Shown here piece after piece: positions 3,001 to 23,417 of a DNA stretch of 64,000 bases. Source of the stretch: Trypanosoma brucei (taxonomy: Eukaryota). Under the pieces are notes generated by a model that ran no database searches, was not told the origin of the DNA, and saw only the letters and a program-made list of their open reading frames with translations. The position numbers were made by a program, and so were the translations under genes. How positions within the stretch are numbered: the first letter of the stretch is position 1; each line of letters begins with the position of its first letter. The stretch is taken from contig AL929603.2 of assembly GCA_000002445.1 (NCBI GenBank), positions 448,001-512,000 of the forward strand. Direction: 5' to 3'.

Positions 3001-6000
3001 GAAGAGCAGCAGCCGCAGGAGCAGCAAACCGAAACCATCATGGACGAGGCACCATGCGCCCCGGAGGACTTCATAGCGGAGGAATCCCAGCAACACACTG
3101 CGAGGAGTGAAGCTGACATTGATGAAGAGCAGCAGCCGCAGGAGCAGCAAACCGAAGCCATCATGGACGAGGCACCATGCGCCCCGGAGGACTTCATAGC
3201 GGAGGAATCCCAGCAACACACTGCGAGGAGTGAAGCTGACATTGATGAAGAGCAGCAGCCGCAGGAGCAGCAAACCGAAACCATCATGGACGAGGCACCA
3301 TGCGCCCCGGAGGACTTCATAGCGGAGGAATCCCAGCAACACACTGCGAGGAGTGAAGCTGACATTGATGAAGAGCAGCAGCCGCAGGAGCAGCAAACCG
3401 AAACCATCATGGACGAGGCACCATGCGCCCCGGAGGACTTCCTAGCGGAGGAATCCCAGCAACACACTGCGAGGAGTGAAGCTGACATTGATGAAGAGCA
3501 GCAGCCGCAGGAGCAGCAAACCGAAACCATCATGGACGAGGCACCATGCGCCCCGGAGGACTTCCTAGCGGAGGAATCCCAGCAACACACTGCGAGGAGT
3601 GAAGCTGACATTGATGAAGAGCAGCAGCCGCAGGAGCAGCAAACCGAAACCATCATGGACGAGGCACCATGCGCCCCGGAGGACTTCCTAGCGGAGGAAT
3701 CCCAGCAACACACTGCGAGGAGTGAAGCTGACATTGATGAAGAGCAGCAGCCGCAGGAGCAGCAAACCGAAACCATCATGGACGAGGCACCATGCGCCCC
3801 GGAGGACTTCCTAGCGGAGGAATCCCAGCAACACACTGCGAGAAGTGAAGCTGACATTGATGAAGAGCAGCAGCCGCAGGAGCAGCAAACCGAAACCATC
3901 ATGGACGAGGCACCATGCGCCCCGGAGGACTTCCTAGCGGAGGAATCCCAGCAACACACTGCGAGAAGTGAAGCTGACATTGATGTAGAGCAGCAGCCGC
4001 AGGAGCAGCAAACCGAAACCATCATGGACGAGGCACCATGCGCCCCGGAGGACTTCCTAGCGGAGGAATCCCAGCAACACACTGCGAGAAGTGAAGCTGA
4101 CATTGATGAAGAGCAGCAGCCGCAGGAGCAGCAAACCGAAACCATCATGGACGAGGCACCATGCGCCCCGGAGGACTTCCTAGCGGAGGAATCCCAGCAA
4201 CACACTGCGAGAAGTGAAGCTGACATTGATGAAGAGCAGCAGCCGCAGGAGCAGCAAACCGAAACCATCATGGACGAGGCACCATGCGCCCCGGAGGACT
4301 TCCTAGCGGAGGAATCCCAGCAACACACTGCGAGGAGTGAAGCTGACATTGATGAAGAGCAGCAGCCGCAGGAGCAGCAAACCGAAACCATCATGGACGA
4401 GGCACCATGCGCCCCGGAGGACTTCCTAGCGGAGGAATCCCAGCAACACACTGCGAGGAGTGAAGCTGACATTGATGAAGAGCAGCAGCCGCAGGAGCAG
4501 CAAACCGAAACCATCATGGACGAGGCACCATGCGCCCCGGAGGACTTCCTAGCGGAGGAATCCCAGCAACACACTGCGAGGAGTGAAGCTGACATTGATG
4601 AAGAGCAGCAGCCGCAGGAGCAGCAAACCGAAACCATCATGGACGAGGCACCATGCGCCCCGGAGGACTTCATAGCGGAGGAATCCCAGCAACACACTGC
4701 GAGGAGTGAAGCTGACATTGATGAAGAGCAGCAGCCGCAGGAGCAGCAAACCGAAACCATCATGGACGAGGCACCATGCGCCCCGGAGGACTTCATAGCG
4801 GAGGAATCCCAGCAACACACTGCGAGGAGTGAAGCTGACATTGATGAAGAGCAGCAGCCGCAGGAGCAGCAAACCGAAACCATCATGGACGAGGCACCAT
4901 GCGCCCCGGAGGACTTCCTAGCGGAGGAATCCCAGCAACACACTGCGAGGAGTGAAGCTGACATTGATGAAGAGCAGCAGCCGCAGGAGCAGCAAACCGA
5001 AACCATCATGGACGAGGCACCATGCGCCCCGGAGGACTTCCTAGCGGAGGAATCCCAGCAACACACTGCGAGGAGTGAAGCTGACATTGATGAAGAGCAG
5101 CAGCCGCAGGAGCAGCAAACCGAAACCATCATGGACGAGGCACCATGCGCTCCGGAGGACTTCCTAGCGGAGGAATCCCAGCAACACACTGCGAGGAGTG
5201 AAGCTGACATTGATGAAGAGCAGCAGCCGCAGGAGCAGCAAACCGAAACCATCATGGACGAGGCACCATGCGCCCCGGAGGACTTCCTAGCGGAGGAATC
5301 CCAGCAACACACTGCGAGGAGTGAAGCTGACATTGATGAAGAGCAGCAGCCGCAGGAGCAGCAAACCGAAACCATCATGGACGAGGCACCATGCGCCCCG
5401 GAGGACTTCCTAGCGGAGGAATCCCAGCAACACACTGCGAGGAGTGAAGCTGACATTGATGAAGAGCAGCAGCCGCAGGAGCAGCAAACCGAAACCATCA
5501 TGGACGAGGCACCATGCGCCCCGGAGGACTTCCTAGCGGAGGAATCCCAGCAACACACTGCGAGGAGTGAAGCTGACATTGATGAAGAGCAGCAGCCGCA
5601 GGAGCAGCAAACCGAAGCCATCATGGACGAGGCACCATGCGCCCCGGAGGACTTCCTAGCGGAGGAATCCCAGCAACACACTGCGAGGAGTGAAGCTGAC
5701 ATTGATGAAGAGCAGCAGCCGCAGGAGCAGCAAACCGAAGCCATCATGGACGAGGCACCATGCGCCCCGGAGGACTTCCTAGCGGAGGAATCCCAGCAAC
5801 ACACTGCGAGGAGTGAAGCTGACATTGATGAAGAGCAGCAGCCGCAGGAGCAGCAAACCGAAGCCATCATGGACGAGGCACCATGCGCCCCGGAGGACTT
5901 CCTAGCGGAGGAATCCCAGCAACACACTGCGAGAAGTGAAGCTGACATTGATGAAGAGCAGCAGCCGCAGGAGCAGCAAACCGAAACCATCATGGACGAG

Positions 6001-9000
6001 GCACCATGCGCCCCGGAGGACTTCCTAGCGGAGGAATCCCAGCAACACACTGCGAGAAGTGAAGCTGACATTGATGAAGAGCAGCAGCCGCAGGAGCAGC
6101 AAACCGAAACCATCATGGACGAGGCACCATGCGCCCCGGAGGACTTCCTAGCGGAGGAATCCCAGCAACACACTGCGAGGAGTGAAGCTGACATTGATGA
6201 AGAGCAGCAGCCGCAGGAGCAGCAAACCGAAACCATCATGGACGAGGCACCATGCGCCCCGGAGGACTTCCTAGCGGAGGAATCCCAGCAACACACTGCG
6301 AGAAGTGAAGCTGACATTGATGAAGAGCAGCAGCCGCAGGAGCAGCAAACCGAAACCATCATGGACGAGGCACCATGCGCCCCGGAGGACTTCCTAGCGG
6401 AGGAATCCCAGCAACACACTGCGAGAAGTGAAGCTGACATTGATGAAGAGCAGCAGCCGCAGGAGCAGCAAACCGAAACCATCATGGACGAGGCACCATG
6501 CGCCCCGGAGGACTTCCTAGCGGAGGAATCCCAGCAACACACTGCGAGGAGTGAAGCTGACATTGATGAAGAGCAGCAGCCGCAGGAGCAGCAAACCGAA
6601 ACCATCATGGACGAGGCACCATGCGCCCCGGAGGACTTCCTAGCGGAGGAATCCCAGCAACACACTGCGAGGAGTGAAGCTGACATTGATGAAGAGCAGC
6701 AGCCGCAGGAGCAGCAAACCGAAACCATCATGGACGAGGCACCATGCGCCCCGGAGGACTTCCTAGCGGAGGAATCCCAGCAACACACTGCGAGAAGTGA
6801 AGCTGACATTGATGAAGAGCAGCAGCCGCAGGAGCAGCAAACCGAAACCATCATGGACGAGGCACCATGCGCCCCGGAGGACTTCCTAGCGGAGGAATCC
6901 CAGCAACACACTGCGAGGAGTGAAGCTGACATTGATGAAGAGCAGCAGCCGCAGGAGCAGCAAACCGAAACCATCATGGACGAGGCACCATGCGCCCCGG
7001 AGGACTTCCTAGCGGAGGAATCCCAGCAACACACTGCGAGGAGTGAAGCTGACATTGATGAAGAGCAGCAGCCGCAGGAGCAGCAAACCGAACCCATCAT
7101 GGACGAGGCACCATGCGCCCCGGAGGACTTCCTAGCGGAGGAATCCCAGCAACACACTGCGAGGAGTGAAGCTGACATTGATGAAGAGCAGCAGCCGCAG
7201 GAGCAGCAAACCGAAGCCATCATGGACGAGGCACCATGCGCCCCGGAGGACTTCCTAGCGGAGGAATCCCAGCAACACACTGCGAGGAGTGAAGCTGACA
7301 TTGATGAAGAGCAGCAGCCGCAGGAGCAGCAAACCGAAGCCATCATGGACGAGGCACCATGCGCCCCGGAGGACTTCCTAGCGGAGGAATCCCAGCAACA
7401 CACTGCGAGGAGTGAAGCTGACATTGATGAAGAGCAGCAGCCGCAGGAGCAGCAAACCGAAGCCATCATGGACGAGGCACCATGCGCCCCGGAGGACTTC
7501 CTAGCGGAGGAATCCCAGCAACACACTGCGAGGAGTGAAGCTGACATTGATGAAGAGCAGCAGCCGCAGGAGCAGCAAACCGAAACCATCATGGACGAGG
7601 CACCATGCGCCCCGGAGGACTTCCTAGCGGAGGAATCCCAGCAACACACTGCGAGGAGTGAAGCTGACATTGATGAAGAGCAGCAGCCGCAGGAGCAGCA
7701 AACCGAAACCATCATGGACGAGGCACCATGCGCCCCGGAGGACTTCCTAGCGGAGGAATCCCAGCAACACACTGCGAGGAGTGAAGCTGACATTGATGAA
7801 GAGCAGCAGCCGCAGGAGCAGCAAACCGAAACCATCATGGACGAGGCACCATGCGCCCCGGAGGACTTCCTAGCGGAGGAATCCCAGCAACACACTGCGA
7901 GGAGTGAAGCTGACATTGATGAAGAGCAGCAGCCGCAGGAGCAGCAAACCGAAGCCATCATGGACGAGGCACCATGCGCCCCGGAGGACTTCATAGCGGA
8001 GGAATCCCAGCAACACACTGCGAGGAGTGAAGCTGACATTGATGAAGAGCAGCAGCCGCAGGAGCAGCAAACCGAAACCATCATGGACGAGGCACCATGC
8101 GCCCCGGAGGACTTCCTAGCGGAGGAATCCCAGCAACACACTGCGAGGAGTGAAGCTGACATTGATGAAGAGCAGCAGCCGCAGGAGCAGCAAACCGAAA
8201 CCATCATGGACGAGGCACCATGCGCCCCGGAGGACTTCCTAGCGGAGGAATCCCAGCAACACACTGCGAGAAGTGAAGCTGACATTGATGTAGAGCAGCA
8301 GCCGCAGGAGCAGCAAACCGAAACCATCATGGACGAGGCACCATGCGCCCCGGAGGACTTCCTAGCGGAGGAATCCCAGCAACACACTGCGAGAAGTGAA
8401 GCTGACATTGATGAAGAGCAGCAGCCGCAGGAGCAGCAAACCGAAACCATCATGGACGAGGCACCATGCGCCCCGGAGGACTTCCTAGCGGAGGAATCCC
8501 AGCAACACACTGCGAGGAGTGAAGCTGACATTGATGAAGAGCAGCAGCCGCAGGAGCAGCAAACCGAAACCATCATGGACGAGGCACCATGCGCCCCGGA
8601 GGACTTCCTAGCGGAGGAATCCCAGCAACACACTGCGAGAAGTGAAGCTGACATTGATGAAGAGCAGCAGCCGCAGGAGCAGCAAACCGAAACCATCATG
8701 GACGAGGCACCATGCGCCCCGGAGGACTTCCTAGCGGAGGAATCCCAGCAACACACTGCGAGGAGTGAAGCTGACATTGATGAAGAGCAGCAGCCGCAGG
8801 AGCAGCAAACCGAAACCATCATGGACGAGGCACCATGCGCCCCGGAGGACTTCCTAGCGGAGGAATCCCAGCAACACACTGCGAGGAGTGAAGCTGACAT
8901 TGATGAAGAGCAGCAGCCGCAGGAGCAGCAAACCGAAACCATCATGGACGAGGCACCATGCGCCCCGGAGGACTTCCTAGCGGAGGAATCCCAGCAACAC

Positions 9001-12000
9001 ACTGCGAGGAGTGAAGCTGACATTGATGAAGAGCAGCAGCCGCAGGAGCAGCAAACCGAAACCATCATGGACGAGGCACCATGCGCCCCGGAGGACTTCC
9101 TAGCGGAGGAATCCCAGCAACACACTGCGAGGAGTGAAGCTGACATTGATGAAGAGCAGCAGCCGCAGGAGCAGCAAACCGAAACCATCATGGACGAGGC
9201 ACCATGCGCCCCGGAGGACTTCCTAGCGGAGGAATCCCAGCAACACACTGCGAGGAGTGAAGCTGACATTGATGAAGAGCAGCAGCCGCAGGAGCAGCAA
9301 ACCGAAGCCATCATGGACGAGGCACCATGCGCCCCGGAGGACTTCCTAGCGGAGGAATCCCAGCAACACACTGCGAGGAGTGAAGCTGACATTGATGAAG
9401 AGCAGCAGCCGCAGGAGCAGCAAACCGAAGCCATCATGGACGAGGCACCATGCGCCCCGGAGGACTTCCTAGCGGAGGAATCCCAGCAACACACTGCGAG
9501 GAGTGAAGCTGACATTGATGAAGAGCAGCAGCCGCAGGAGCAGCAAACCGAAGCCATCATGGACGAGGCACCATGCGCCCCGGAGGACTTCATAGCGGAG
9601 GAATCCCAGCAACACACTGCGAGGAGTGAAGCTGACATTGATGAAGAGCAGCAGCCGCAGGAGCAGCAAACCGAAACCATCATGGACGAGGCACCATGCG
9701 CCCCGGAGGACTTCATAGCGGAGGAATCCCAGCAACACACTGCGAGGAGTGAAGCTGACATTGATGAAGAGCAGCAGCCGCAGGAGCAGCAAACCGAAAC
9801 CATCATGGACGAGGCACCATGCGCCCCGGAGGACTTCCTAGCGGAGGAATCCCAGCAACACACTGCGAGAAGTGAAGCTGACATTGATGAAGAGCAGCAG
9901 CCGCAGGAGCAGCAAACCGAAACCATCATGGACGAGGCACCATGCGCCCCGGAGGACTTCCTAGCGGAGGAATCCCAGCAACACACTGCGAGGAGTGAAG
10001 CTGACATTGATGAAGAGCAGCAGCCGCAGGAGCAGCAAACCGAAACCATCATGGACGAGGCACCATGCGCCCCGGAGGACTTCCTAGCGGAGGAATCCCA
10101 GCAACACACTGCGAGAAGTGAAGCTGACATTGATGAAGAGCAGCAGCCGCAGGAGCAGCAAACCGAAACCATCATGGACGAGGCACCATGCGCCCCGGAG
10201 GACTTCCTAGCGGAGGAATCCCAGCAACACACTGCGAGGAGTGAAGCTGACATTGATGAAGAGCAGCAGCCGCAGGAGCAGCAAACCGAAACCATCATGG
10301 ACGAGGCACCATGCGCTCCGGAGGACTTCCTAGCGGAGGAATCCCAGCAACACACTGCGAGGAGTGAAGCTGACATTGATGAAGAGCAGCAGCCGCAGGA
10401 GCAGCAAACCGAAACCATCATGGACGAGGCACCATGCGCCCCGGAGGACTTCCTAGCGGAGGAATCCCAGCAACACACTGCGAGGAGTGAAGCTGACATT
10501 GATGAAGAGCAGCAGCCGCAGGAGCAGCAAACCGAAACCATCATGGACGAGGCACCATGCGCCCCGGAGGACTTCCTAGCGGAGGAATCCCAGCAACACA
10601 CTGCGAGGAGTGAAGCTGACATTGATGAAGAGCAGCAGCCGCAGGAGCAGCAAACCGAAACCATCATGGACGAGGCACCATGCGCTCCGGAGGACTTCCT
10701 AGCGGAGGAATCCCAGCAACACACTGCGAGGAGTGAAGCTGACATTGATGAAGAGCAGCAGCCGCAGGAGCAGCAAACCGAAACCATCATGGACGAGGCA
10801 CCATGCGCTCCGGAGGACTTCCTAGCGGAGGAATCCCAGCAACACACTGCGAGGAGTGAAGCTGACATTGATGAAGAGCAGCAGCCGCAGGAGCAGCAAA
10901 CCGAAACCATCATGGACGAGGCACCATGCGCTCCGGAGGACTTCCTAGCGGAGGAATCCCAGCAACACACTGCGAGGAGTGAAGCTGACATTGATGAAGA
11001 GCAGCAGCCGCAGGAGCAGCAAACCGAAACCATCATGGACGAGGCACCATGCGCCCCGGAGGACTTCCTAGCGGAGGAATCCCAGCAACACACTGCGAGG
11101 AGTGAAGCTGACATTGATGAAGAGCAGCAGCCGCAGGAGCAGCAAACCGAAACCATCATGGACGAGGCACCATGCGCCCCGGAGGACTTCATAGCGGAGG
11201 AATCCCAGCAACACACTGCGAGGAGTGAAGCTGACATTGATGAAGAGCAGCAGCCGCAGGAGCAGCAAACCGAAACCATCATGGACGAGGCACCATGCGC
11301 CCCGGAGGACTTCATAGCGGAGGAATCCCAGCAACACACTGCGAGGAGTGAAGCTGACATTGATGAAGAGCAGCAGCCGCAGGAGCAGCAAACCGAAACC
11401 ATCATGGACGAGGCACCATGCGCCCCGGAGGACTTCATAGCGGAGGAATCCCAGCAACACACTGCGAGGAGTGAAGCTGACATTGATGAAGAGCAGCAGC
11501 CGCAGGAGCAGCAAACCGAAACCATCATGGACGAGGCACCATGCGCCCCGGAGGACTTCATAGCGGAGGAATCCCAGCAACACACTGCGAGGAGTGAAGC
11601 TGACATTGATGAAGAGCAGCAGCCGCAGGAGCAGCAAACCGAAACCATCATGGACGAGGCACCATGCGCCCCGGAGGACTTCATAGCGGAGGAATCCCAG
11701 CAACACACTGCGAGGAGTGAAGCTGACATTGATGAAGAGCAGCAGCCGCAGGAGCAGCAAACCGAAGCCATCATGGACGAGGCACCATGCGCTCCGGAGG
11801 ACTTCATAGCGGAGGAATCCCAGCAACACACTGCGAGGAGTGAAGCTGACATTGATGAAGAGCAGCAGCCGCAGGAGCAGCAAACCGAAGCCATCATGGA
11901 CGAGGCACCATGCGCCCCGGAGGACTTCCTAGCGGAGGAATCCCAGCAACACACTGCGAGGAGTGAAGCTGACATTGATGAAGAGCAGCAGCCGCAGGAG

Positions 12001-14196
12001 CAGCAAACCGAAACCATCATGGACGAGGCACCATGCGCCCCGGAGGACTTCCTAGCGGAGGAATCCCAGCAACACACTGCGAGGAGTGAAGCTGACATTG
12101 ATGAAGAGCAGCAGCCGCAGGAGCAGCAAACCGAAACCATCATGGACGAGGCACCATGCGCCCCGGAGGACTTCATAGCGGAGGAATCCCAGCAACACAC
12201 TGCGAGGAGTGAAGCTGACATTGATGAAGAGCAGCAGCCGCAGGAGCAGCAAACCGAAACCATCATGGACGAGGCACCATGCGCCCCGGAGGACTTCCTA
12301 GCGGAGGAATCCCAGCAACACACTGCGAGGAGTGAAGCTGACATTGATGAAGAGCAGCAGCCGCAGGAGCAGCAAACCGAAACCATCATGGACGAGGCAC
12401 CATGCGCCCCGGAGGACTTCCTAGCGGAGGAATCCCAGCAACACACTGCGAGGAGTGAAGCTGACATTGATGAAGAGCAGCAGCCGCAGGAGCAGCAAAC
12501 CGAAACCATCATGGACGAGGCACCATGCGCTCCGGAGGACTTCCTAGCGGAGGAATCCCAGCAACACACTGCGAGGAGTGAAGCTGACATTGATGAAGAG
12601 CAGCAGCCGCAGGAGCAGCAAACCGAAACCATCATGGACGAGGCACCATGCGCCCCGGAGGACTTCCTAGCGGAGGAATCCCAGCAACACACTGCGAGGA
12701 GTGAAGCTGACATTGATGAAGAGCAGCAGCCGCAGGAGCAGCAAACCGAAGCCATCATGGACGAGGCACCATGCGCCCCGGAGGACTTCCTAGCGGAGGA
12801 ATCCCAGCAACACACTGCGAGGAGTGAAGCTGACATTGATGAAGAGCAGCAGCCGCAGGAGCAGCAAACCGAAGCCATCATGGACGAGGCACCATGCGCC
12901 CCGGAGGACTTCCTAGCGGAGGAATCCCAGCAACACACTGCGAGGAGTGAAGCTGACATTGATGAAGAGCAGCAGCCGCAGGAGCAGCAAACCGAAACCA
13001 TCATGGACGAGGCACCATGCGCTCCGGAGGACTTCCTAGCGGAGGAATCCCAGCAACACACTGCGAGGAGTGAAGCTGACATTGATGAAGAGCAGCAGCC
13101 GCAGGAGCAGCAAACCGAAGCCATCATGGACGAGGCACCATGCGCCCCGGAGGACTTCCTAGCGGAGGAATCCCAGCAACACACTGCGAGGAGTGAAGCT
13201 GACATTGATGAAGAGCAGCAGCCGCAGGAGCAGCAAACCGAAACCATCATGGACGAGGCACCATGCGCCCCGGAGGACTTCCTAGCGGAGGAATCCCAGC
13301 AACACACTGCGAGGAGTGAAGCTGACATTGATGAAGAGCAGCAGCCGCAGGAGCAGCAAACCGAAACCATCATGGACGAGGCACCATGCGCCCCGGAGGA
13401 CTTCATAGCGGAGGAATCCCAGCAACACACTGCGAGGAGTGAAGCTGACATTGATGAAGAGCAGCAGCCGCAGGAGCAGCAAACCGAAACCATCATGGAC
13501 GAGGCACCATGCGCCCCGGAGGACTTCATAGCGGAGGAATCCCAGCAACACACTGCGAGGAGTGAAGCTGACATTGATGAAGAGCAGCAGCCGCAGGAGC
13601 AGCAAACCGAAACCATCATGGACGAGGCACCATGCGCCCCGGAGGACTTCCTAGCGGAGGAATCCCAGCAACACACTGCGAGGAGTGAAGCTGACATTGA
13701 TGAAGAGCAGCAGCCGCAGGAGCAGCAAACCGAAACCATCATGGACGAGGCACCATGCGCCCCGGAGGACTTCCTAGCGGAGGAATCCCAGCAACACACT
13801 GCGAGGAGTGAAGCTGACATTGATGAAGAGCAGCAGCCGCAGGAGCAGCAAACCGAAACCATCATGGACGAGGCACCATGCGCTCCGGAGGACTTCCTAG
13901 CGGAGGAATCCCAGCAACACACTGCGAGGAGTGAAGCTGACATTGATGAAGAGCAGCAGCCGCAGGAGCAGCAAACCGAAACCATCATGGACGAGGCACC
14001 ATGCGCTCCGGAGGACTTCCTAGCGGAGGAATCCCAGCAACACACTGCGAGGAGTGAAGCTGACATTGATGAAGAGCAGCAGCCGCAGGAGCAGCAAACC
14101 GAAACCATCATGGACGAGGCACCATGCGCTCCGGAGGACTTCCTAGCGGAGGAATCCCAGCAACACACTGCGAGGAGTGAAGCTGACATTGATGAT
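1..14196 (+). repeat. Tandem array of a 123-bp unit, about 115.4 copies at roughly 99% identity. It is the coding repeat of the giant protein.
   Basis: Direct reading of the sequence shows period 123. The variants are cta/ata (L/I), acc/gcc (T/A), ccc/ctc and agg/aga (both synonymous), gaa/gta (E/V), and single gac/ggc and acc/ccc changes. Confidence 0.95.
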
Positions 14197-14853
14197 GAGC
14201 TAGGTAAGATTGTGAATCTGTTTATAGTGGAAGAGAAGTGTAGAAGGAGTATTATTGAAGATACTGAGTTTTGTATGCGTAATATTTTCTCCGACGTTTT
14301 TAATTTCTTAGTTGAAACTTTTTATTTAGAAAGTGATATGGTGGTTTCATCTCTGGGTTCTAAGAGTGAGTCTCCATGCCTCCATGTTGCTAGTGATTTG
14401 TTTGTTTTTTCTAATGGAGTGAAATCTTTTTTGCCCTCTGACTTTCCTGATTTTGACAATGGTGGTTTTTGCTTTTATTCTGAGTCTTTTGATGTTTCTT
14501 CTTGTAATGTATGTTTTGGCAATCCTTTGGATGATGCTGACTATTCTCGTGGGGGTTCAATGGGGATGCGCGGTGATGCTGTTGATGGTGAAGTGTGCGT
14601 TGATGAGGTATCTATGGATACCATGGTTTATTGTGATTCTGTATGCACCGTTAATGTTGAAGAGGAAGGAGGGGTTGGAGAGGATGCGGTCCCTTTTTGT
14701 CGGCAACCCGTTCCTGTAATGTTGCAAAAGTCGAAAAAGAGGGTCCATGGTGGTCAGTTGGGTAGGGATTCTGATGATGAAGATGCCGCTGAATCTTATC
14801 ATGGATGGTGGACCTTTCTTTCTGTTCCATTCTTCAAAACACACCGTAGGTAA
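1..14853 (+). CDS. Giant acidic tandem-repeat protein, 5'-partial. The reading frame is already open at position 1. About 115 copies of a 41-aa unit (MDEAPCAPEDF[L/I]AEESQQHTARSEADIDEEQQPQEQQTE[T/A]I) are followed by a unique 219-aa C-terminal domain and a stop at 14851-14853.
   Basis: ATG codons recur every 123 nt (88, 211, ... 14110), and frame +1 has no stop from nt 1 to 14853. The repeat translation is identical apart from a few variant positions. The gene must continue upstream of the window. Confidence 0.85.
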   Translation, partial: AEESQQHTARSEADIDEEQQPQEQQTETIMDEAPCAPEDFLAEESQQHTARSEADIDEEQQPQEQQTETIMDEAPCAPEDFLAEESQQHTARSEADIDEEQQPQEQQTEAIMDEAPCAPEDFLAEESQQHTARSEADIDEEQQPQEQQTETIMDEAPCAPEDFLAEESQQHTARSEADIDEEQQPQEQQTETIMDEAPCAPEDFLAEESQQHTARSEADIDEEQQPQEQQTETIMDEAPCAPEDFLAEESQQHTARSEADIDVEQQPQEQQTETIMDEAPCAPEDFLAEESQQHTARSEADIDEEQQPQEQQTETIMDEAPCAPEDFLAEESQQHTARSEADIDEEQQPQEQQTETIMDEAPCAPEDFLAEESQQHTARSEADIDEEQQPQEQQTETIMDEAPCAPEDFLAEESQQHTARSEADIDEEQQPQEQQTETIMDEAPCAPEDFLAEESQQHTARSEADIDEEQQPQEQQTETIMDEAPCAPEDFLAEESQQHTARSEADIDEEQQPQEQQTETIMDEAPCAPEDFLAEESQQHTARSEADIDEEQQPQEQQTETIMDEAPCAPEDFLAEESQQHTARSEADIDEEQQPQEQQTEAIMDEAPCAPEDFLAEESQQHTARSEAGIDEEQQPQEQQTETIMDEAPCAPEDFLAEESQQHTARSEADIDEEQQPQEQQTETIMDEAPCAPEDFLAEESQQHTARSEADIDEEQQPQEQQTETIMDEAPCAPEDFLAEESQQHTARSEADIDEEQQPQEQQTEAIMDEAPCAPEDFLAEESQQHTARSEADIDEEQQPQEQQTEAIMDEAPCAPEDFLAEESQQHTARSEADIDEEQQPQEQQTEAIMDEAPCAPEDFLAEESQQHTARSEADIDEEQQPQEQQTETIMDEAPCAPEDFLAEESQQHTARSEADIDEEQQPQEQQTETIMDEAPCAPEDFLAEESQQHTARSEADIDEEQQPQEQQTETIMDEAPCAPEDFLAEESQQHTARSEADIDEEQQPQEQQTETIMDEAPCAPEDFIAEESQQHTARSEADIDEEQQPQEQQTEAIMDEAPCAPEDFIAEESQQHTARSEADIDEEQQPQEQQTETIMDEAPCAPEDFIAEESQQHTARSEADIDEEQQPQEQQTETIMDEAPCAPEDFLAEESQQHTARSEADIDEEQQPQEQQTETIMDEAPCAPEDFLAEESQQHTARSEADIDEEQQPQEQQTETIMDEAPCAPEDFLAEESQQHTARSEADIDEEQQPQEQQTETIMDEAPCAPEDFLAEESQQHTARSEADIDEEQQPQEQQTETIMDEAPCAPEDFLAEESQQHTARSEADIDVEQQPQEQQTETIMDEAPCAPEDFLAEESQQHTARSEADIDEEQQPQEQQTETIMDEAPCAPEDFLAEESQQHTARSEADIDEEQQPQEQQTETIMDEAPCAPEDFLAEESQQHTARSEADIDEEQQPQEQQTETIMDEAPCAPEDFLAEESQQHTARSEADIDEEQQPQEQQTETIMDEAPCAPEDFLAEESQQHTARSEADIDEEQQPQEQQTETIMDEAPCAPEDFIAEESQQHTARSEADIDEEQQPQEQQTETIMDEAPCAPEDFIAEESQQHTARSEADIDEEQQPQEQQTETIMDEAPCAPEDFLAEESQQHTARSEADIDEEQQPQEQQTETIMDEAPCAPEDFLAEESQQHTARSEADIDEEQQPQEQQTETIMDEAPCAPEDFLAEESQQHTARSEADIDEEQQPQEQQTETIMDEAPCAPEDFLAEESQQHTARSEADIDEEQQPQEQQTETIMDEAPCAPEDFLAEESQQHTARSEADIDEEQQPQEQQTETIMDEAPCAPEDFLAEESQQHTARSEADIDEEQQPQEQQTEAIMDEAPCAPEDFLAEESQQHTARSEADIDEEQQPQEQQTEAIMDEAPCAPEDFLAEESQQHTARSEADIDEEQQPQEQQTEAIMDEAPCAPEDFLAEESQQHTARSEADIDEEQQPQEQQTETIMDEAPCAPEDFLAEESQQHTARSEADIDEEQQPQEQQTETIMDEAPCAPEDFLAEESQQHTARSEADIDEEQQPQEQQTETIMDEAPCAPEDFLAEESQQHTARSEADIDEEQQPQEQQTETIMDEAPCAPEDFLAEESQQHTARSEADIDEEQQPQEQQTETIMDEAPCAPEDFLAEESQQHTARSEADIDEEQQPQEQQTETIMDEAPCAPEDFLAEESQQHTARSEADIDEEQQPQEQQTETIMDEAPCAPEDFLAEESQQHTARSEADIDEEQQPQEQQTETIMDEAPCAPEDFLAEESQQHTARSEADIDEEQQPQEQQTETIMDEAPCAPEDFLAEESQQHTARSEADIDEEQQPQEQQTEPIMDEAPCAPEDFLAEESQQHTARSEADIDEEQQPQEQQTEAIMDEAPCAPEDFLAEESQQHTARSEADIDEEQQPQEQQTEAIMDEAPCAPEDFLAEESQQHTARSEADIDEEQQPQEQQTEAIMDEAPCAPEDFLAEESQQHTARSEADIDEEQQPQEQQTETIMDEAPCAPEDFLAEESQQHTARSEADIDEEQQPQEQQTETIMDEAPCAPEDFLAEESQQHTARSEADIDEEQQPQEQQTETIMDEAPCAPEDFLAEESQQHTARSEADIDEEQQPQEQQTEAIMDEAPCAPEDFIAEESQQHTARSEADIDEEQQPQEQQTETIMDEAPCAPEDFLAEESQQHTARSEADIDEEQQPQEQQTETIMDEAPCAPEDFLAEESQQHTARSEADIDVEQQPQEQQTETIMDEAPCAPEDFLAEESQQHTARSEADIDEEQQPQEQQTETIMDEAPCAPEDFLAEESQQHTARSEADIDEEQQPQEQQTETIMDEAPCAPEDFLAEESQQHTARSEADIDEEQQPQEQQTETIMDEAPCAPEDFLAEESQQHTARSEADIDEEQQPQEQQTETIMDEAPCAPEDFLAEESQQHTARSEADIDEEQQPQEQQTETIMDEAPCAPEDFLAEESQQHTARSEADIDEEQQPQEQQTETIMDEAPCAPEDFLAEESQQHTARSEADIDEEQQPQEQQTETIMDEAPCAPEDFLAEESQQHTARSEADIDEEQQPQEQQTEAIMDEAPCAPEDFLAEESQQHTARSEADIDEEQQPQEQQTEAIMDEAPCAPEDFLAEESQQHTARSEADIDEEQQPQEQQTEAIMDEAPCAPEDFIAEESQQHTARSEADIDEEQQPQEQQTETIMDEAPCAPEDFIAEESQQHTARSEADIDEEQQPQEQQTETIMDEAPCAPEDFLAEESQQHTARSEADIDEEQQPQEQQTETIMDEAPCAPEDFLAEESQQHTARSEADIDEEQQPQEQQTETIMDEAPCAPEDFLAEESQQHTARSEADIDEEQQPQEQQTETIMDEAPCAPEDFLAEESQQHTARSEADIDEEQQPQEQQTETIMDEAPCAPEDFLAEESQQHTARSEADIDEEQQPQEQQTETIMDEAPCAPEDFLAEESQQHTARSEADIDEEQQPQEQQTETIMDEAPCAPEDFLAEESQQHTARSEADIDEEQQPQEQQTETIMDEAPCAPEDFLAEESQQHTARSEADIDEEQQPQEQQTETIMDEAPCAPEDFLAEESQQHTARSEADIDEEQQPQEQQTETIMDEAPCAPEDFLAEESQQHTARSEADIDEEQQPQEQQTETIMDEAPCAPEDFLAEESQQHTARSEADIDEEQQPQEQQTETIMDEAPCAPEDFIAEESQQHTARSEADIDEEQQPQEQQTETIMDEAPCAPEDFIAEESQQHTARSEADIDEEQQPQEQQTETIMDEAPCAPEDFIAEESQQHTARSEADIDEEQQPQEQQTETIMDEAPCAPEDFIAEESQQHTARSEADIDEEQQPQEQQTETIMDEAPCAPEDFIAEESQQHTARSEADIDEEQQPQEQQTEAIMDEAPCAPEDFIAEESQQHTARSEADIDEEQQPQEQQTEAIMDEAPCAPEDFLAEESQQHTARSEADIDEEQQPQEQQTETIMDEAPCAPEDFLAEESQQHTARSEADIDEEQQPQEQQTETIMDEAPCAPEDFIAEESQQHTARSEADIDEEQQPQEQQTETIMDEAPCAPEDFLAEESQQHTARSEADIDEEQQPQEQQTETIMDEAPCAPEDFLAEESQQHTARSEADIDEEQQPQEQQTETIMDEAPCAPEDFLAEESQQHTARSEADIDEEQQPQEQQTETIMDEAPCAPEDFLAEESQQHTARSEADIDEEQQPQEQQTEAIMDEAPCAPEDFLAEESQQHTARSEADIDEEQQPQEQQTEAIMDEAPCAPEDFLAEESQQHTARSEADIDEEQQPQEQQTETIMDEAPCAPEDFLAEESQQHTARSEADIDEEQQPQEQQTEAIMDEAPCAPEDFLAEESQQHTARSEADIDEEQQPQEQQTETIMDEAPCAPEDFLAEESQQHTARSEADIDEEQQPQEQQTETIMDEAPCAPEDFIAEESQQHTARSEADIDEEQQPQEQQTETIMDEAPCAPEDFIAEESQQHTARSEADIDEEQQPQEQQTETIMDEAPCAPEDFLAEESQQHTARSEADIDEEQQPQEQQTETIMDEAPCAPEDFLAEESQQHTARSEADIDEEQQPQEQQTETIMDEAPCAPEDFLAEESQQHTARSEADIDEEQQPQEQQTETIMDEAPCAPEDFLAEESQQHTARSEADIDEEQQPQEQQTETIMDEAPCAPEDFLAEESQQHTARSEADIDDELGKIVNLFIVEEKCRRSIIEDTEFCMRNIFSDVFNFLVETFYLESDMVVSSLGSKSESPCLHVASDLFVFSNGVKSFLPSDFPDFDNGGFCFYSESFDVSSCNVCFGNPLDDADYSRGGSMGMRGDAVDGEVCVDEVSMDTMVYCDSVCTVNVEEEGGVGEDAVPFCRQPVPVMLQKSKKRVHGGQLGRDSDDEDAAESYHGWWTFLSVPFFKTHRR

Positions 14854-18912: not shown

Positions 18913-19236
18913 ATGAATAACGCATTGGATCCGGCAAAGGCACCACAATTTCTTGATATGATGTTGCGCCGCAATAAAATGGTAATGGTGTCCGCCACGT
19001 ATTGTCAGTTCTGCACAAAACTGAAGATGTTACTGATTGAACTCAAACACCGTTTCGTTTCACTTGAAATTGATATTATTCCCAACGGTCGTGAAGTGTT
19101 TGCAGAAGTGGTGGGACGCACGGGTGTACATACGGTGCCTCAAGTTTTTCTTAATGGGAAGTATTTTGGCGGTTATGATGAACTTGTTGCAATGTACCGG
19201 GCAGGGCACCTTTCAGCCGAAATTGAAAGGGGCTGA
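18913..19236 (+). CDS. 2-C-Grx2: Dithiol (2-Cys) glutaredoxin of 107 aa with a C-Q-F-C active site.
   Basis: The glutaredoxin fold motifs are present: 'MVMVSATYCQFCTKLK' (active site) and 'TVPQVFLNGKYFGGYDELVAMYRAGHL'. A CQFC active site is the one described for T. brucei 2-C-Grx2. The internal ATG at 18913 is the plausible start. Confidence 0.85.
   Translation: MNNALDPAKAPQFLDMMLRRNKMVMVSATYCQFCTKLKMLLIELKHRFVSLEIDIIPNGREVFAEVVGRTGVHTVPQVFLNGKYFGGYDELVAMYRAGHLSAEIERG

Positions 19237-19768: not shown

Positions 19769-19770
<2 letters not shown>

Positions 19771-19858
<88 letters not shown>
19771..19858. repeat. (ATT)n microsatellite, about 29 copies. It sits next to (GT)n at 19711-19735 and (CTTT)n at 19439-19460.
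   Basis: Seen directly in the sequence. Confidence 0.95.
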
Positions 19859-20159: not shown

Positions 20160-20879
20160 TTGAAATTACACGGACTACCTCCTACGGCCAACTCGATGGG
20201 AATTTATTCCGACACTGATGATGACTCTCCCATCGGGATTGAGGTGGTAGGCGAGGCGAGTTCTGATTCGGAAGAACCAAACCCCCATTCAACCACAAAG
20301 CGAAAAGTTTCCGGGGCTGTAGACCATAATAATGGTTATAATCAAAAAAAAAACAAGCGGAGGCGGTTAAAAAATAAATGGGAGGAAAACCCTCAGCTGC
20401 ACGAAACGCCGGATGAGGAGCAAATTAGCAACGTTAAAAAGCGTGTTTATGTGTTGGACACATGTTCTATTGTTGAGCACATTGAGTGGTCAATTTTGGA
20501 GGAAGTTGCCAAGTATTACTTGATTATCATACCAAAGAAAGTGATGGACGAATTAGGAAAAATGGAAGGGGGAAGGGGAAGTACATGCAACAGGGTGTTG
20601 AACAAACTGGAGAATGAGCACACGAGTAACAAAATGAATGTTGGCTTCCGTTTGCAGCGCAAAAATGATAAGGACAAAAATGTTTTGTCTGCAGCTCGTG
20701 TGAATGACGATCACATTCTTTCGTGTGCATGTTCCTTCCGTAACGAACATGATGTCGTATTAGTTACGAGTGATAATATATTGAAACTGAAGGCATATGC
20801 AGAGGGCATACCGACAGTATCGACGCTCAAAGACGTCACCCGACTGACTAATGGTTTAAGAGGTGGGAAATTTGAATGA
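20160..20879 (+). CDS. PIN-domain protein of 239 aa, a predicted Mg-dependent RNase fold.
   Basis: The PIN motifs appear in order: 'VYVLDTCSIV', 'KVMDELGKM', 'NDDHILSCA', 'VVLVTSDNILKLKA'. The N-terminal part is acidic and S/D-rich. The start could instead be the second Met at 20196. Confidence 0.65.
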   Translation: MKLHGLPPTANSMGIYSDTDDDSPIGIEVVGEASSDSEEPNPHSTTKRKVSGAVDHNNGYNQKKNKRRRLKNKWEENPQLHETPDEEQISNVKKRVYVLDTCSIVEHIEWSILEEVAKYYLIIIPKKVMDELGKMEGGRGSTCNRVLNKLENEHTSNKMNVGFRLQRKNDKDKNVLSAARVNDDHILSCACSFRNEHDVVLVTSDNILKLKAYAEGIPTVSTLKDVTRLTNGLRGGKFE

Positions 20880-21692
20880 GAATGTTCCCAGTTATCCCTT
20901 TATTCGTTTGCATTAAACCCTTTCGCGCTTGTTTGACTGTTTGGCTACGGTTTTTTTAGGAGGGAAGAGGGGCTCGCCTAAAGGAAAAAAGATATGAAAA
21001 GAAAAAAAAAGGAAAGAAAGAGAGAAGAAAGAGTAGGGGCGGAAGCGAGGAGGAGTTTACCCGCAACCTCCACGAGTGCGCATGCACATGAGGGAAAAGA
21101 GAAATGTGCGTGTGAAGCTCACGTCACCGCTTGTTTTTTTTTCTTTTCTCAGTCACAACTTCCTCCGTTGTATGCTTGTACACGCATACATTTATTTGCT
21201 CATTTATTGAATTACTTCATGCTTTCGACACTTCAACCTCCCACCTCCTCCCACTTATCACGGAATGCAAAAAAAAAAAAAGAAAGAAACGCCTTTGTTG
21301 TGATGGTGAGTGGCGTACCTCAACATCTTCCCTTCCCTTCTCTTCTCTTCTCGTGCTGTGTCGTGTCGTGTCTCGCTGTTTCTCTTCTTATTGTTGTGAT
21401 TGGCATTTATATGTATGTATATTTATAAATATATATATATATATGTTTGTGTGTGTCTCTGTGATATCATCATCTCTTCACCGCAGTCGCCGTTATTTCT
21501 TCGTTTTGCTTTCTGCTATCACCGCGCAAATTCAGATGCGTGGTAATTACAGTTTTTAGTGACATAACCTCGTTGGCTTTAAAAAGAACAGATAAACCAA
21601 GTGAAAAACGAAAGGCAACGTCACTAAAAAGGAAAGCTTAATTACATCCCGGGTGCTAATTAGGTTTTTTCCTATGCATTTACATGGGTATG

Positions 21693-21727
21693 TGAGTGAG
21701 TGAGTGAGTGAGTGAGTGAGTGAGTGA
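21693..21727. repeat. (GTGA)n microsatellite, about 9 copies.
   Basis: Seen directly in the sequence. Confidence 0.9.
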
Positions 21728-22271
21728 CAGGGAATAAAAGATTGTTGAACTCAACTGAAAAACACACATCGAAATATTCTCCAACTCTCTTTACAGTTCT
21801 CTTACTGCTCCCCGCTCGTGTGGAAATATATAATGTCTCACATAAAGGCAGAGAAATTTTTAACAAACAAATTAATTTGTTTAGTTTTCTGCTTTTATGA
21901 TTTGAAAACGAAAAAAAGATCTTTATGGAAACTACACGGCCAAGTAGTCGGTTGTTCTTCTCTTTGCCTTTTGTGTATTTGCTCACACGGTTTTTGCATC
22001 TGAACATTCTGATCTCACATCACCGAATAATTGTTACACAATTTTTTTCTCTCCCCTTCCGCCTCTCTTTCTTGCGACTGGTTCCTCGCTTCTTTTTTTT
22101 TGTTTGTTTGTTCGCTTAGTTAGCGCCCACAAGTGAAGGAGGGCGAGTTGTGGGCCTGTAAGTGGTACTTTAGATTGCACGTCGGTAGTTGCTTCTGATC
22201 TGCGTATTGCAACTTTCGTGTTGTAAAATAGATTGCGGTAGTACTAGCAGTGGGTTTTTGCCCTGTGCGCG

Positions 22272-23417
22272 ATGGATAATAGCACGGAACTTGGGCCTTT
22301 AAATTCACCTGGCAACATCTTTACTTCTCATGGTGAGGGTAACAGTATTGGCACTTCGTCTCCGCCACATCCGCATTCTACAGAGAGTACGGGTGATAAT
22401 AATGAGTTTATGAACCCACACAATATAGTTTCCAGTCATATGCCTTCACGTGAGGGGTCTGTTTTTGTGAATCGACATCCCCCTGAGAGGCCGGTGGAGA
22501 CTCTCGAAAAAGACGATCAAAACCGATCCTACCTGTACTCGCCGGCTCCAACTACCGACTGCAATGAATCTGTGAACTTTGTTTGCATGCAAGAGGCAGC
22601 AGCAGCAGGATTGCAAACTCCAATTGTACCGGCTGCGTCATCATCAATAAGTCAACACACCGCAGCAGAATCTAAAAGTGTCCACTCCACTGAAAATAAC
22701 AATGACTTCGTGAAAGTGTTCACGACTAGCAAAGGCAGTCATAAAGGGGGAAGATTGGAGGCGTTGCGGCGGATTTCCAATAAGCACAAAACATTCATTG
22801 GACTTACGACGATCACGCCACAGCAACGAAACACCAATGACTGCATTAACCGAAGTATTAATGCCAGTGCACCCAACGAACTTTCGCGTGCGGGCGATAA
22901 CGGTGCTGTTACCAATCCTGGGGGCACAAAACTGGTGCACAGTGTTCCTGTAAAACAGTTGCAACCCCAAGTATCTCATATTGTGCTCGATACATGCAGT
23001 TTGCTGCGGGTTGGGCCACTCCAGTTGGCATGTCTCATGAGGAGGGCCGTTGTGTGCCTGCCACATGGAGTTTTACATGAAATGGACTCGTGGAACCATG
23101 TAGCCAAAAAATATGAAGATGAAATCAGCAGGAAGCGGGCGTTTGTTGCTCGTCGCATACGTACTTGGGTGCACTACGCTACCAAATATAAGGCAAGCAT
23201 ACGTCTTCAGGCGATGAATGAGGTGAACACTGCGTTTGACAAACATGTGCAGAGGAATGATATGGCAATTCTTGGTTTTGCGGTGTTCCTGGAACGTAAT
23301 GAAAAGACTTTGGTGGAATTTGTGACAGATGATACATACCTTTCCCTGACAGCGGCCCAAGAGTTAAAAGGTGTAGTCCGAACAACAAAAGGTTTATTGG
23401 ATTATTACGGGTGCTAA
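22272..23417 (+). CDS. PIN-domain protein of 381 aa, a divergent paralog of the upstream PIN gene, with a long S/T-rich N-terminal extension.
   Basis: The C-terminal 170 aa repeat the same motif order: 'HIVLDTCSLL', 'GVLHEMDSW', 'RNDMAILGFA', 'VEFVTDDTYLSLTAAQ'. Confidence 0.65.
   Translation: MDNSTELGPLNSPGNIFTSHGEGNSIGTSSPPHPHSTESTGDNNEFMNPHNIVSSHMPSREGSVFVNRHPPERPVETLEKDDQNRSYLYSPAPTTDCNESVNFVCMQEAAAAGLQTPIVPAASSSISQHTAAESKSVHSTENNNDFVKVFTTSKGSHKGGRLEALRRISNKHKTFIGLTTITPQQRNTNDCINRSINASAPNELSRAGDNGAVTNPGGTKLVHSVPVKQLQPQVSHIVLDTCSLLRVGPLQLACLMRRAVVCLPHGVLHEMDSWNHVAKKYEDEISRKRAFVARRIRTWVHYATKYKASIRLQAMNEVNTAFDKHVQRNDMAILGFAVFLERNEKTLVEFVTDDTYLSLTAAQELKGVVRTTKGLLDYYGC

What the first reader, a model, noticed from the sequence alone, without database searches (positions are those of the whole stretch)
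20160..23417. Tandem pair of divergent PIN-domain (predicted RNase) paralogs
Two adjacent same-strand genes both carry the four canonical PIN motif blocks in the same order, D-T-C-S, then E-(L/M)-D, then N-D, then V-T-(S/D)-D. The acidic residues that form the PIN-type active site are retained in both. Elsewhere they have diverged strongly: the first has a short acidic N-terminus and the second a long S/T-rich one. This looks like an old local duplication of a putative RNA-decay or processing nuclease followed by sub-functionalisation. PIN nucleases in kinetoplastids are of interest because gene regulation there is almost entirely post-transcriptional.
Basis: partly seen in the sequence, partly recalled or inferred. 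Interest (0 to 1): 0.5.

Follow-up and report, generated by a model that had tools for sequence, protein, structure and literature searches.

The report
ESB2 nuclease and its neighbouring paralogue
Two neighbouring Trypanosoma brucei genes both encode RNA-cutting PIN nucleases: the second is ESB2, shown in 2026 to trim virulence-gene transcripts, and the first is an unstudied relative that has sat beside it throughout the genus Trypanosoma.

Summary
The window is T. brucei-group chromosome 1. Gene 1 (20196..20879, 227 aa) is Tb927.1.1790. Gene 2 (22272..23417, 381 aa) is Tb927.1.1820. Both pass Pfam PIN_4, keep the invariant D/T/E/D/D active-site residues, and give AlphaFold models whose best solved match is the human SMG6 PIN domain.

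Gene 2 is already known. It is ESB2, a Mg2+-dependent RNA endonuclease of the expression-site body that lowers ESAG transcripts (Lansink et al., Nat Microbiol 2026).

Gene 1 appears in no main text of the searched library, only as a row in RNA-seq tables. Its label 'T. brucei spp.-specific' in the gambiense annotation is wrong. The order glutaredoxin, gene-1-like, ESB2-like is conserved in T. vivax, T. grayi, T. conorhini and T. theileri. The PIN pair is also adjacent in T. congolense. In T. cruzi gene 1 is a pseudogene at the same spot. Leptomonas and Angomonas show one ESB2-type gene at a different locus.

The two are certainly homologous (profile-profile E 2e-23) and split before Trypanosoma radiated. 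Sequence alone cannot prove a tandem duplication. Gene 1 is most likely an active, partner-directed endoribonuclease. Verdict: half known, half a new member of a known kind; moderate interest.

The parts
20196..20879 (+). Gene 1 coding sequence, Tb927.1.1790 (227 aa plus stop): an uncharacterised PIN_4 protein
   Evidence: 100% identical to P0001 (XP_001218881, 'hypothetical protein TB927.1.1790'). PIN_4 at 73.8 bits.
20196..20432 (+). Gene 1 N-terminal region (aa 1-79), predicted disordered. It has an acidic Ser-rich start (MGIYSDTDDDSP...) followed by the basic patch KKNKRRRLKNK.
   Evidence: pLDDT 36-53. The motif M..(L/I)YS.S(D/E) recurs in most orthologues and is degenerate in T. vivax and T. 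grayi. The basic patch is not conserved.
20433..20861 (+). Gene 1 PIN domain (aa 80-222). Catalytic codons: D88 (20457-20459), E119, D171, D193; also T89.
   Evidence: The two ends of the domain have pLDDT 85-95; the loop between them has 64-69. The fold is alpha/beta/alpha. Best Foldseek match is SMG6 PIN 2hww, E 3.4e-7. The residues are invariant in 10 orthologues.
20880..22271 (+). Intergenic region between the two genes. It holds the 3'UTR of gene 1, a polypyrimidine tract (about 22036-22118) ending in AG, and the 5'UTR of gene 2. There is no convincing coding ORF.
   Evidence: Read directly from the sequence. ORFs here are low-complexity. The RNA-seq gene lists run 1770, 1790, 1820, 1840, with no 1800 or 1810. 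The splice-site assignment is inferred.
22272..23417 (+). Gene 2 coding sequence, Tb927.1.1820, ESB2 (381 aa plus stop)
   Evidence: 100% identical to P0002 and 99.7% to the TREU927 protein XP_001218884. Residues D240, T241, S243, E270, D330, T352, D353 and D354 match the numbering published for ESB2.
22272..22973 (+). ESB2 N-terminal S/T/N/P-rich region (aa 1-234), predicted disordered, with one short helix at aa 160-171 (RLEALRRISNKH)
   Evidence: pLDDT below 50 except around the helix. The helix corresponds to the only conserved N-terminal block of the orthologues, SRLEE.R...EKY.
22974..23408 (+). ESB2 PIN domain (aa 235-379). Catalytic codons: D240 (22989-22991), E270, D330, D354.
   Evidence: PIN_4 at 41.9 bits. 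pLDDT mostly 85-95. Best Foldseek matches are EST1A/SMG6 PIN 2dok and 2hww, E about 1e-5. Nuclease activity and D240/D330/D353 mutants are published.
18913..19236 (+). Upstream glutaredoxin gene (107 aa), the conserved synteny anchor of the pair
   Evidence: Pfam Glutaredoxin, E 2.1e-11. 82-88% identical to the gene directly upstream of the pair in T. grayi, T. vivax and T. theileri, and upstream of the gene-1 remnant and the ESB2-type gene in T. cruzi. A Pfam Glutaredoxin gene also precedes the pair in T. conorhini.

Best explanation
The locus carries two homologous SMG6-type (Pfam PIN_4) metal-dependent endoribonuclease genes, each expressed as its own mRNA from one polycistronic unit.

Gene 2 is ESB2. 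Published work shows that its PIN domain cuts RNA internally in a Mg2+-dependent way. The protein concentrates at the expression-site body of bloodstream forms, downstream of VEX2, ESAP1 and ESB3. There it lowers ESAG transcripts relative to VSG.

Gene 1 (Tb927.1.1790) is a minimal relative: a disordered tail of about 80 residues plus a PIN domain with the complete catalytic set (D88, T89, E119, D171, D193). I infer that it is also an active Mg2+-dependent endoribonuclease. Because it has no RNA-binding or targeting domain, its substrates must be chosen by a partner protein or by its location.

The two lineages separated before the radiation of Trypanosoma and have stayed adjacent since, most simply because they arose by an ancient tandem duplication.

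Shown here: identity of both genes, fold, conserved residues, synteny, and loss of gene 1 in T. cruzi. Shown in the literature: activity and role of ESB2. Inferred: activity of gene 1, its dependence on a partner, and the tandem origin.
For: - Identity: accessions; residue numbering matches the ESB2 paper.
- PIN_4 HMM hits.
- Family profiles hit only the SMG6/EST1A PIN domain strongly among solved structures: E 6.8e-13 for the joint profile and 4.6e-12 for the gene-1 clade.
- AlphaFold models have confident PIN cores, and SMG6 PIN is the top Foldseek match for both.
- Catalytic residues are invariant in 10 gene-1-type and 9 ESB2-type proteins and in 123-124 of 124 relatives.
- Homology between the two clades: hhalign E 2.1e-23.
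- The pair is adjacent in five other Trypanosoma species, preceded by glutaredoxin in four of them.
- Gene 1 mRNA is present in bloodstream forms at about 80-120 units, similar to ESB2, and is unchanged when ESB2 mRNA is knocked down (log2FC -0.06; supplement tables).
- ESB2 biochemistry and genetics: PMC13056571.
Against: - There is no experimental datum on the gene 1 protein. It is absent from every main text searched and from a September 2026 list of trypanosomatid PIN proteins.
- Gene 1 evolves fast, at 33-45% identity between species, and is a pseudogene in T. cruzi. It is therefore dispensable in at least one lineage.
- The gene-1 clade is not closer to the ESB2 clade (hhalign score 120) than to other PIN_4 groups (126-148). 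Neighbour-joining places ESB2 with the non-Trypanosoma gene, excluding gene 1 (99%). A tandem duplication therefore rests on adjacency alone.
Confidence: 0.8

Rival explanations
1. The two genes are independent, anciently separate PIN_4 lineages that became neighbours by rearrangement in the Trypanosoma ancestor. They are not products of a local duplication.
For: - hhalign scores of the gene-1 clade against other PIN_4 groups (126-148) equal or exceed its score against the ESB2 clade (120).
- In neighbour-joining bootstraps, ESB2-type proteins of Trypanosoma group with the single gene of Leptomonas-type organisms in 99% of replicates, and gene 1 never groups with Trypanosoma ESB2 alone.
- In Leptomonas, Angomonas and two unnamed contigs the ESB2-type gene lies in another context (DRC11/AAA upstream; RanBP1 downstream in the two named species) with no second PIN gene nearby.
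Against: - Two members of one small domain family lying directly side by side on the same strand, conserved across the genus, is unlikely by chance. This is an inference: the number of PIN_4 genes in T. brucei was not counted here.
- A fast-evolving duplicate is expected to be pulled to the base of a distance tree built from about 150 columns.
- Monophyly of the gene-1 clade itself got only 20% bootstrap, which shows how weak the signal is.
Confidence: 0.2
2. Gene 1 is a decaying or non-catalytic remnant. It might be a structural or regulatory subunit like the inactive PIN proteins SMG5 and Nmd4, rather than a working nuclease.
For: - It is a pseudogene, with a shared stop codon, frameshifts and NDDH changed to N(N)EEH, at the syntenic site in three T. 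cruzi assemblies.
- Identity between species is low.
- There are four amino-acid differences between brucei and gambiense in 227 aa, against one in 381 for ESB2.
- Its size and PIN-only layout resemble yeast Nmd4, which appears among its fold matches (E 7e-4).
Against: - All five active-site residues are invariant across the gene-1-type proteins of seven Trypanosoma species and three related unnamed sequences. Inactive PIN proteins typically lose these residues (established knowledge for SMG5 and Nmd4).
- The ORF is intact in all seven of those species.
- The mRNA is as abundant as that of ESB2.
Confidence: 0.12
3. Gene 1 works together with the ESB2-type protein, for instance as a PIN-PIN heterodimer or a regulator of ESB2 activity, and this is why the pair stays linked.
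For: - The pair is retained side by side in six Trypanosoma species.
- The ESB2 authors propose that an unknown partner may activate or direct ESB2 (Discussion).
- Many PIN domains dimerise (established for VapC-type proteins).
Against: - T. cruzi keeps the ESB2-type gene intact but has lost gene 1.
- Gene 1 was not found in the stored part of the proximity-labelling tables of the ESB2 paper. Those files are truncated, so this is weak.
- Linkage carries no regulatory meaning in polycistronic trypanosome transcription (established knowledge).
- ESB2 knockdown leaves gene 1 mRNA unchanged.
Confidence: 0.08

Closest known systems
ESB2 (Tb927.1.1820), expression-site-body-specific protein 2 of T. 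brucei (Lansink et al., Nat Microbiol 2026, PMC13056571)
   Same: Gene 2 is this protein, with the same length and the same residue numbering for D240, T241, S243, E270, D330, T352, D353 and D354. Gene 1 shares its PIN_4 domain, its catalytic residues and its closest solved structural relative (SMG6 PIN).
   Different: Gene 1 lacks the roughly 230-residue S/T-rich disordered region and its conserved helix. It is only 28% identical in the PIN domain and falls outside the ESB2 orthologue clade. At the position of ESB2's optional fifth acidic residue (D353) it has serine. It also keeps D172 and K199, where ESB2 has the unusual M331 and T360.
Human SMG6 (EST1A) PIN domain, the endonuclease of nonsense-mediated decay (PDB 2hww, 2dok)
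   Same: It is the best sequence match (E about 1e-12) and the best fold match for both proteins. The catalytic residues D1251, E1282, D1353 and D1392 correspond, and the motifs NDD-ILSC and L-TxD-L-KA are shared, especially with gene 1.
   Different: Neither trypanosome protein has the EST1/14-3-3-like domain or the exon-junction-complex-binding motifs of SMG6. Pfam finds only the PIN domain. T. brucei is reported to have only UPF1 and UPF2 of the decay machinery (PMC6173133). They are domain-level homologues, not orthologues.
Yeast Nmd4, a small PIN-only protein that binds the Upf1 helicase (PDB 8rd3, 8rdd)
   Same: Gene 1 has a similar size (227 aa against 218 aa) and a similar layout, with a PIN domain and little else. 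Nmd4 appears among its fold matches (E 7e-4 to 1.5e-3).
   Different: It is a much weaker match than SMG6, and no sequence-level hit was found. Nmd4 is regarded as catalytically inactive (own knowledge), whereas gene 1 keeps every catalytic residue. No helicase interaction is known for gene 1.
Other trypanosomatid PIN or NYN nucleases: RRP44/Dis3 PIN domain, PRORP, ZNK1 (PMC9841401, PMC13569496)
   Same: All have a PIN-like fold with acidic metal-binding residues and act on RNA. The exosome RRP44 PIN domain appears among the fold matches.
   Different: They belong to different PIN subfamilies and have different architectures (RNB domain, PPR repeats, zinc knuckles). None is a PIN_4 protein adjacent to ESB2.

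Membership tests
Pfam PIN_4 (PF13638), SMG6-type PIN domain | HMM score above the curated gathering cut-off (21.9 bits) | tested here: met
   Gene 1 scores 73.8 bits and gene 2 scores 41.9 bits.
Pfam PIN_4 (PF13638), SMG6-type PIN domain | Alpha/beta/alpha fold with a central parallel sheet that matches solved PIN domains | tested here: met
   AlphaFold PIN cores are confident, with pLDDT 85-95 outside one internal loop. The top Foldseek PDB matches are SMG6/EST1A PIN, at E 3.4e-7 and 9.7e-6, followed by other PIN domains.
Pfam PIN_4 (PF13638), SMG6-type PIN domain | Four conserved acidic residues (D, E, D, D) plus the T/S that follows the first D | tested here: met
   Gene 1 has D88, T89, E119, D171 and D193. 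Gene 2 has D240, T241, E270, D330 and D354. These align to SMG6 D1251, E1282, D1353 and D1392. Their clustering in three dimensions was not measured.
Pfam PIN_4 (PF13638), SMG6-type PIN domain | Divalent-metal-dependent RNA endonuclease activity | not testable with these tools
   Published for the ESB2 PIN domain: Mg2+-dependent and EDTA-sensitive (PMC13056571). No data exist for gene 1.
ESB2 orthologue group | Sequence identity with Tb927.1.1820 and placement in the ESB2 clade | tested here: met
   This row is for gene 2. It is 100% and 99.7% identical to the T. brucei-group proteins. It groups with the Trypanosoma long PIN_4 proteins in 72.5% of bootstraps, and with those plus the Leptomonas type in 99%.
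ESB2 orthologue group | Gene 1 falls inside the ESB2 clade and shares its long N-terminal region | tested here: not met
   Gene 1 forms its own clade with the short Trypanosoma proteins. It was excluded from the ESB2 clade in 99% of bootstraps. It has no counterpart of the ESB2 N-terminal region (one search aligns only the PIN domain).
SMG6/EST1 family (nonsense-mediated decay factor) | EST1/14-3-3-like TPR domain N-terminal to the PIN domain | tested here: not met
   A Pfam scan at E up to 10 finds only PIN_4, a sub-threshold PIN_9 match in gene 1 (19.9 bits against a cut-off of 26.3), and chance-level matches to unrelated families. The N-termini are predicted disordered.
Nmd4-like PIN-only Upf1 partners | Binding to a Upf1-type helicase domain | not testable with these tools
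   Only a weak fold match was found (E 7e-4). No interaction data exist.

The most novel reading that the evidence does not exclude
Tb927.1.1790 could be the missing general SMG6/Nmd4-like endonuclease of trypanosomes. On this reading it is a catalytically intact mini-PIN that is recruited by UPF1 or another UPF1-like helicase to cleave mRNAs. ESB2 would then be its sister lineage, captured by the UPF1-like helicase VEX2 for expression-site control. The pair would record how a general RNA-decay module was copied and dedicated to antigenic variation. T. brucei ESB2 shows the accelerated, lineage-specific change expected of such a take-over.
Probability: 0.1. Interest if true: 0.65.

Novelty: new member of a known kind. 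Interest (0 to 1): 0.33.

Why it matters
ESB2 is a newly described control point for the virulence genes that are co-transcribed with VSG. Its authors state that its activation and substrate choice are unexplained and may need a partner.

An unstudied, catalytically intact relative lies next door, and the pairing has been kept throughout Trypanosoma. That makes it an obvious and cheap candidate to test. It could be a redundant or backup nuclease (relevant to interpreting ESB2 knockdowns), a partner, or a general decay enzyme in an organism said to lack SMG5/6/7.

The comparative data also give ESB2 an evolutionary context. Its orthologues exist in species without ESAGs or an expression-site body, and the T. 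brucei copy has changed unusually fast. If gene 1 turns out to be an ordinary housekeeping nuclease, the finding is only a corrected annotation.

Tried and rejected
- **Word-indexed homologue searches.** They returned only the T. brucei proteins themselves, even with a 32-sequence alignment. Orthologues came from the exhaustive profile search instead.
- **Distance trees with distant outgroups.** They were unstable. T. brucei gene 1 was pulled towards an unrelated group of about 930-aa proteins, and gene-1 clade monophyly got 20% support. I therefore do not date the split beyond 'before the Trypanosoma radiation'.
- **Motif states as shared derived characters.** I tried ILSC against ILGF and LVT against FVT. 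The Angomonas protein is intermediate (IVGC, LVT), which shows homoplasy, so I rejected this approach.
- **Synteny between the window and the non-Trypanosoma loci.** None of their neighbouring genes match the window, and the window's AAA protein showed no match to DRC11.
- **Localisation of Tb927.1.1790.** It was not in the stored, truncated TrypTag tables. The ESB2 paper's supplements list it only in RNA-seq tables.
- **Rfam on 17000-27000.** It gave one sub-threshold mir-297 hit (37 bits against 90), which I treat as chance.
- **The ORFs between and antisense to the two genes.** They are low-complexity, and I do not regard them as genes.
- **A toxin-antitoxin (VapC) reading.** I dismissed it: this is a eukaryotic polycistron with no antitoxin-like partner, and the VapC matches are far weaker than SMG6.
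Full report
**What is in the sequence.** The region holds two ORFs on the + strand. Every ORF of 180 aa or more that is not nested inside a larger + strand ORF also lies on the + strand, as expected for a kinetoplastid polycistron.

Gene 1 is 100% identical to XP_001218881, 'hypothetical protein TB927.1.1790'. Its true start is the ATG at 20196 (227 aa). The TTG at 20160 is only the mechanical ORF start.

Gene 2 (22272..23417, 381 aa) is identical to the T. b. gambiense protein CBH08914 and 99.7% identical to the TREU927 protein XP_001218884. That accession is three numbers after that of Tb927.1.1790. The residues D240, T241, S243, E270, D330, T352, D353 and D354 sit exactly where the ESB2 paper places them for Tb927.1.1820. 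Gene 2 is therefore ESB2.

**Checking the observation.**
- Both proteins exceed the Pfam PIN_4 gathering score of 21.9 bits, with 73.8 and 41.9 bits.
- They align at 28% identity over 166 residues, E 9e-8.
- Profiles built from their orthologues match with hhalign probability 99.6%, E 2.1e-23.
One correction: block 2 of gene 1 reads D-E-L-G, not E-L-D.
- In an alignment of 124 relatives the five active-site columns (D, T, E, D, D) are invariant or nearly so, at 123-124 of 124. Both genes keep all of them.

**Fold.**
- AlphaFold with orthologue alignments gives confident PIN cores, with pLDDT 85-95 apart from one lower-confidence internal loop in each. The cores span gene 1 residues 80-222 and ESB2 residues 235-379. 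Both have the expected strand-helix alternation and disordered N-termini.
- The best solved match for each is the human SMG6/EST1A PIN domain, at E 3.4e-7 and 9.7e-6, followed by other PIN domains.
- At sequence level, the joint family profile hits SMG6 PIN at E 6.8e-13 and the gene-1-clade profile hits it at E 4.6e-12. Every other solved structure scores far weaker.
- Neither protein has an EST1/14-3-3-like module. They are domain-level homologues of SMG6, not orthologues.

**What is already known.** Lansink et al. (Nat Microbiol 2026, PMC13056571) identified Tb927.1.1820 by proximity labelling around VEX1/VEX2 and named it ESB2. They showed the following:
- Its recombinant PIN domain (aa 95 to the C-terminus) cleaves RNA internally in a Mg2+-dependent, EDTA-sensitive way.
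- D240A could not be made homozygous.
- A D240A/D330A/D353A mutant mislocalises and fails to rescue knockdown.
[quoted passage not shown] Ribosome profiling had earlier shown 4-5-fold higher translation efficiency of this gene in bloodstream forms (PMC4210626).

The ESB2 paper never uses the word 'paralog' in its main text. Tb927.1.1790 occurs in no main text of the searched library. A September 2026 list of trypanosomatid PIN proteins names RRP44, PRORP, ESB2 and ZNK1 only. Tb927.1.1790 does appear in the ESB2 paper's RNA-seq tables. Its mRNA level is similar to that of ESB2 (about 80-120 units) and does not change on ESB2 knockdown.

**Relatives and synteny.** An exhaustive profile search of 1.84 billion representative proteins found 116 relatives. 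BLAST sorting and a neighbour-joining tree separate two kinds:
- a gene-1 type, short (192-302 aa), found in T. vivax, T. congolense, T. conorhini, T. grayi, T. melophagium and T. theileri;
- an ESB2 type, found in T. grayi, T. congolense, T. cruzi and Leptomonas seymouri among others.

The label 'T. brucei spp.-specific protein' carried by gene 1 in the gambiense annotation is therefore wrong.

Contig look-ups show the order glutaredoxin, gene-1 type, ESB2 type in T. grayi, T. vivax, T. theileri and T. conorhini, and the adjacent pair in T. congolense.

In T. cruzi the glutaredoxin and ESB2-type genes are intact. Between them lies only a decayed gene-1 remnant with in-frame stops, frameshifts and the catalytic NDDH changed to N(N)EEH. 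The remnant is seen in three assemblies and shares a stop codon across them. T. conorhini, a close relative, keeps the gene.

Outside Trypanosoma I examined Leptomonas, Angomonas and two unnamed contigs. Each shows a single PIN_4 gene downstream of a DRC11/AAA gene. In Leptomonas and Angomonas it also lies upstream of RanBP1. The flanks held contain no second PIN gene, and no neighbour matches the window.

**Age and origin of the pair.** The split predates the last common ancestor of the sampled Trypanosoma species. Whether it was a tandem duplication cannot be settled from about 150 alignable columns.
- In 200 neighbour-joining bootstraps the Trypanosoma ESB2 proteins grouped with the Leptomonas-type proteins, excluding gene 1, in 99% of replicates. 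Gene 1 never grouped with Trypanosoma ESB2 alone.
- The gene-1 profile scores no higher against the ESB2 clade (120) than against other PIN_4 groups from unidentified organisms (126-148).
- This fits either an older split with loss of gene 1 elsewhere, or a duplication in the Trypanosoma stem followed by fast evolution of gene 1, which distance methods would misplace.
- Adjacency conserved over the whole genus is the positive argument for a tandem origin.

**Mechanism.** For ESB2 the mechanism is published. For gene 1 I infer a Mg2+-dependent endoribonuclease, on three grounds:
- the full catalytic set is invariant in every intact orthologue;
- the SMG6-type fold is predicted with confidence;
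- the mRNA is expressed.

It has no recognisable RNA-binding or targeting domain. Most orthologues share a short acidic Ser-rich N-terminal motif, and the basic patch is not conserved. Specificity must therefore come from a partner or from localisation.

Its rapid evolution and its loss in T. cruzi argue that it is not universally essential.

**Verdict.** Half of the finding (ESB2) is now well-characterised biology. The new elements are modest:
- an unstudied, catalytically intact neighbour of ESB2;
- its genus-wide linkage to ESB2 and its loss in T. cruzi;
- a corrected annotation;
- signs that T. brucei ESB2 has evolved unusually fast.

The most interesting reading still open is that gene 1 is the general SMG6/Nmd4-like nuclease of trypanosomes. 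That reading is speculative, and I put it at about 10%.

Noticed in passing
window 1-14853: A 123-bp unit is repeated about 115 times at 99% identity (1..14200). It lies inside one 4921-aa ORF (88..14853) that encodes a 41-residue acidic repeat, MDEAPCAPEDFLAEESQQHTARSEADIDEEQQPQEQQTETI. This region has a distinct composition: GC 0.58 and AT skew 0.49.
   Followed up: partly
L009 about 5976-6360; L013 about 2976-3359; L014 about 2975-3358 (T. cruzi): The T. cruzi counterpart of gene 1 is a pseudogene at the syntenic position between the glutaredoxin and ESB2-type genes. It has in-frame stops, frameshifts and a substituted catalytic motif, seen in three assemblies. T. conorhini keeps an intact 192-aa gene.
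   Followed up: yes
window 22272-23417 (ESB2), residues M331 and T360: T. brucei ESB2 looks fast-evolving. It is 38-42% identical to all orthologues, whereas T. congolense and T. vivax are each 54% identical to T. grayi. It has M331 where 88 of 124 relatives have D, and T360 where 103 of 123 have K. It is also the shortest member of its clade (381 aa against 506-639 aa).
   Followed up: partly
window 20196-20879: The T. b. gambiense annotation calls this protein 'T. brucei spp.-specific'. Orthologues exist in at least six other Trypanosoma species.
   Followed up: yes
L002, L003, L004, L006: In Leptomonas, Angomonas and two unnamed contigs the single ESB2-type PIN_4 gene lies downstream of a DRC11_N/AAA gene. 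In the two named species it also lies upstream of RanBP1 and SPRY-domain genes. This is a different locus from that of Trypanosoma. The N-terminal length of this protein ranges from about 40 to about 860 residues across organisms.
   Followed up: partly
PIN domains of both genes: The ESB2 paper states that ESB2 and SMG6 'are not homologues'. The family profile nevertheless matches the SMG6 PIN domain at E 6.8e-13, and both belong to Pfam PIN_4. At domain level they are homologous. What is absent is the rest of the SMG6 architecture.
   Followed up: yes
window 20196-20240 and orthologues (alignment A3): Most gene-1 orthologues begin with an acidic, Ser-rich motif, M..(L/I)YS.S(D/E). It may be a phosphorylation or docking site. 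The basic KKNKRRRLKNK patch of T. brucei is not conserved.
   Followed up: no
window 22749-22784 (ESB2 aa 160-171): The only predicted helix in the disordered N-terminus of ESB2, RLEALRRISNKH, corresponds to the only block conserved in the N-terminal regions of the orthologues, SRLEE.R...EKY. It is a candidate docking element.
   Followed up: no
window 20196-23417: The window's gene 1 protein is identical to the TREU927/T. equiperdum sequence and 98.2% identical to the gambiense one. Its ESB2 protein is identical to the gambiense DAL972 sequence and differs by one residue from TREU927. The source strain therefore matches neither reference exactly.
   Followed up: no
window 24757-24827: A sub-threshold Rfam match to mir-297 (37 bits against a gathering score of 90). 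I treat it as chance; no microRNA of this family is expected in a trypanosome.
   Followed up: no
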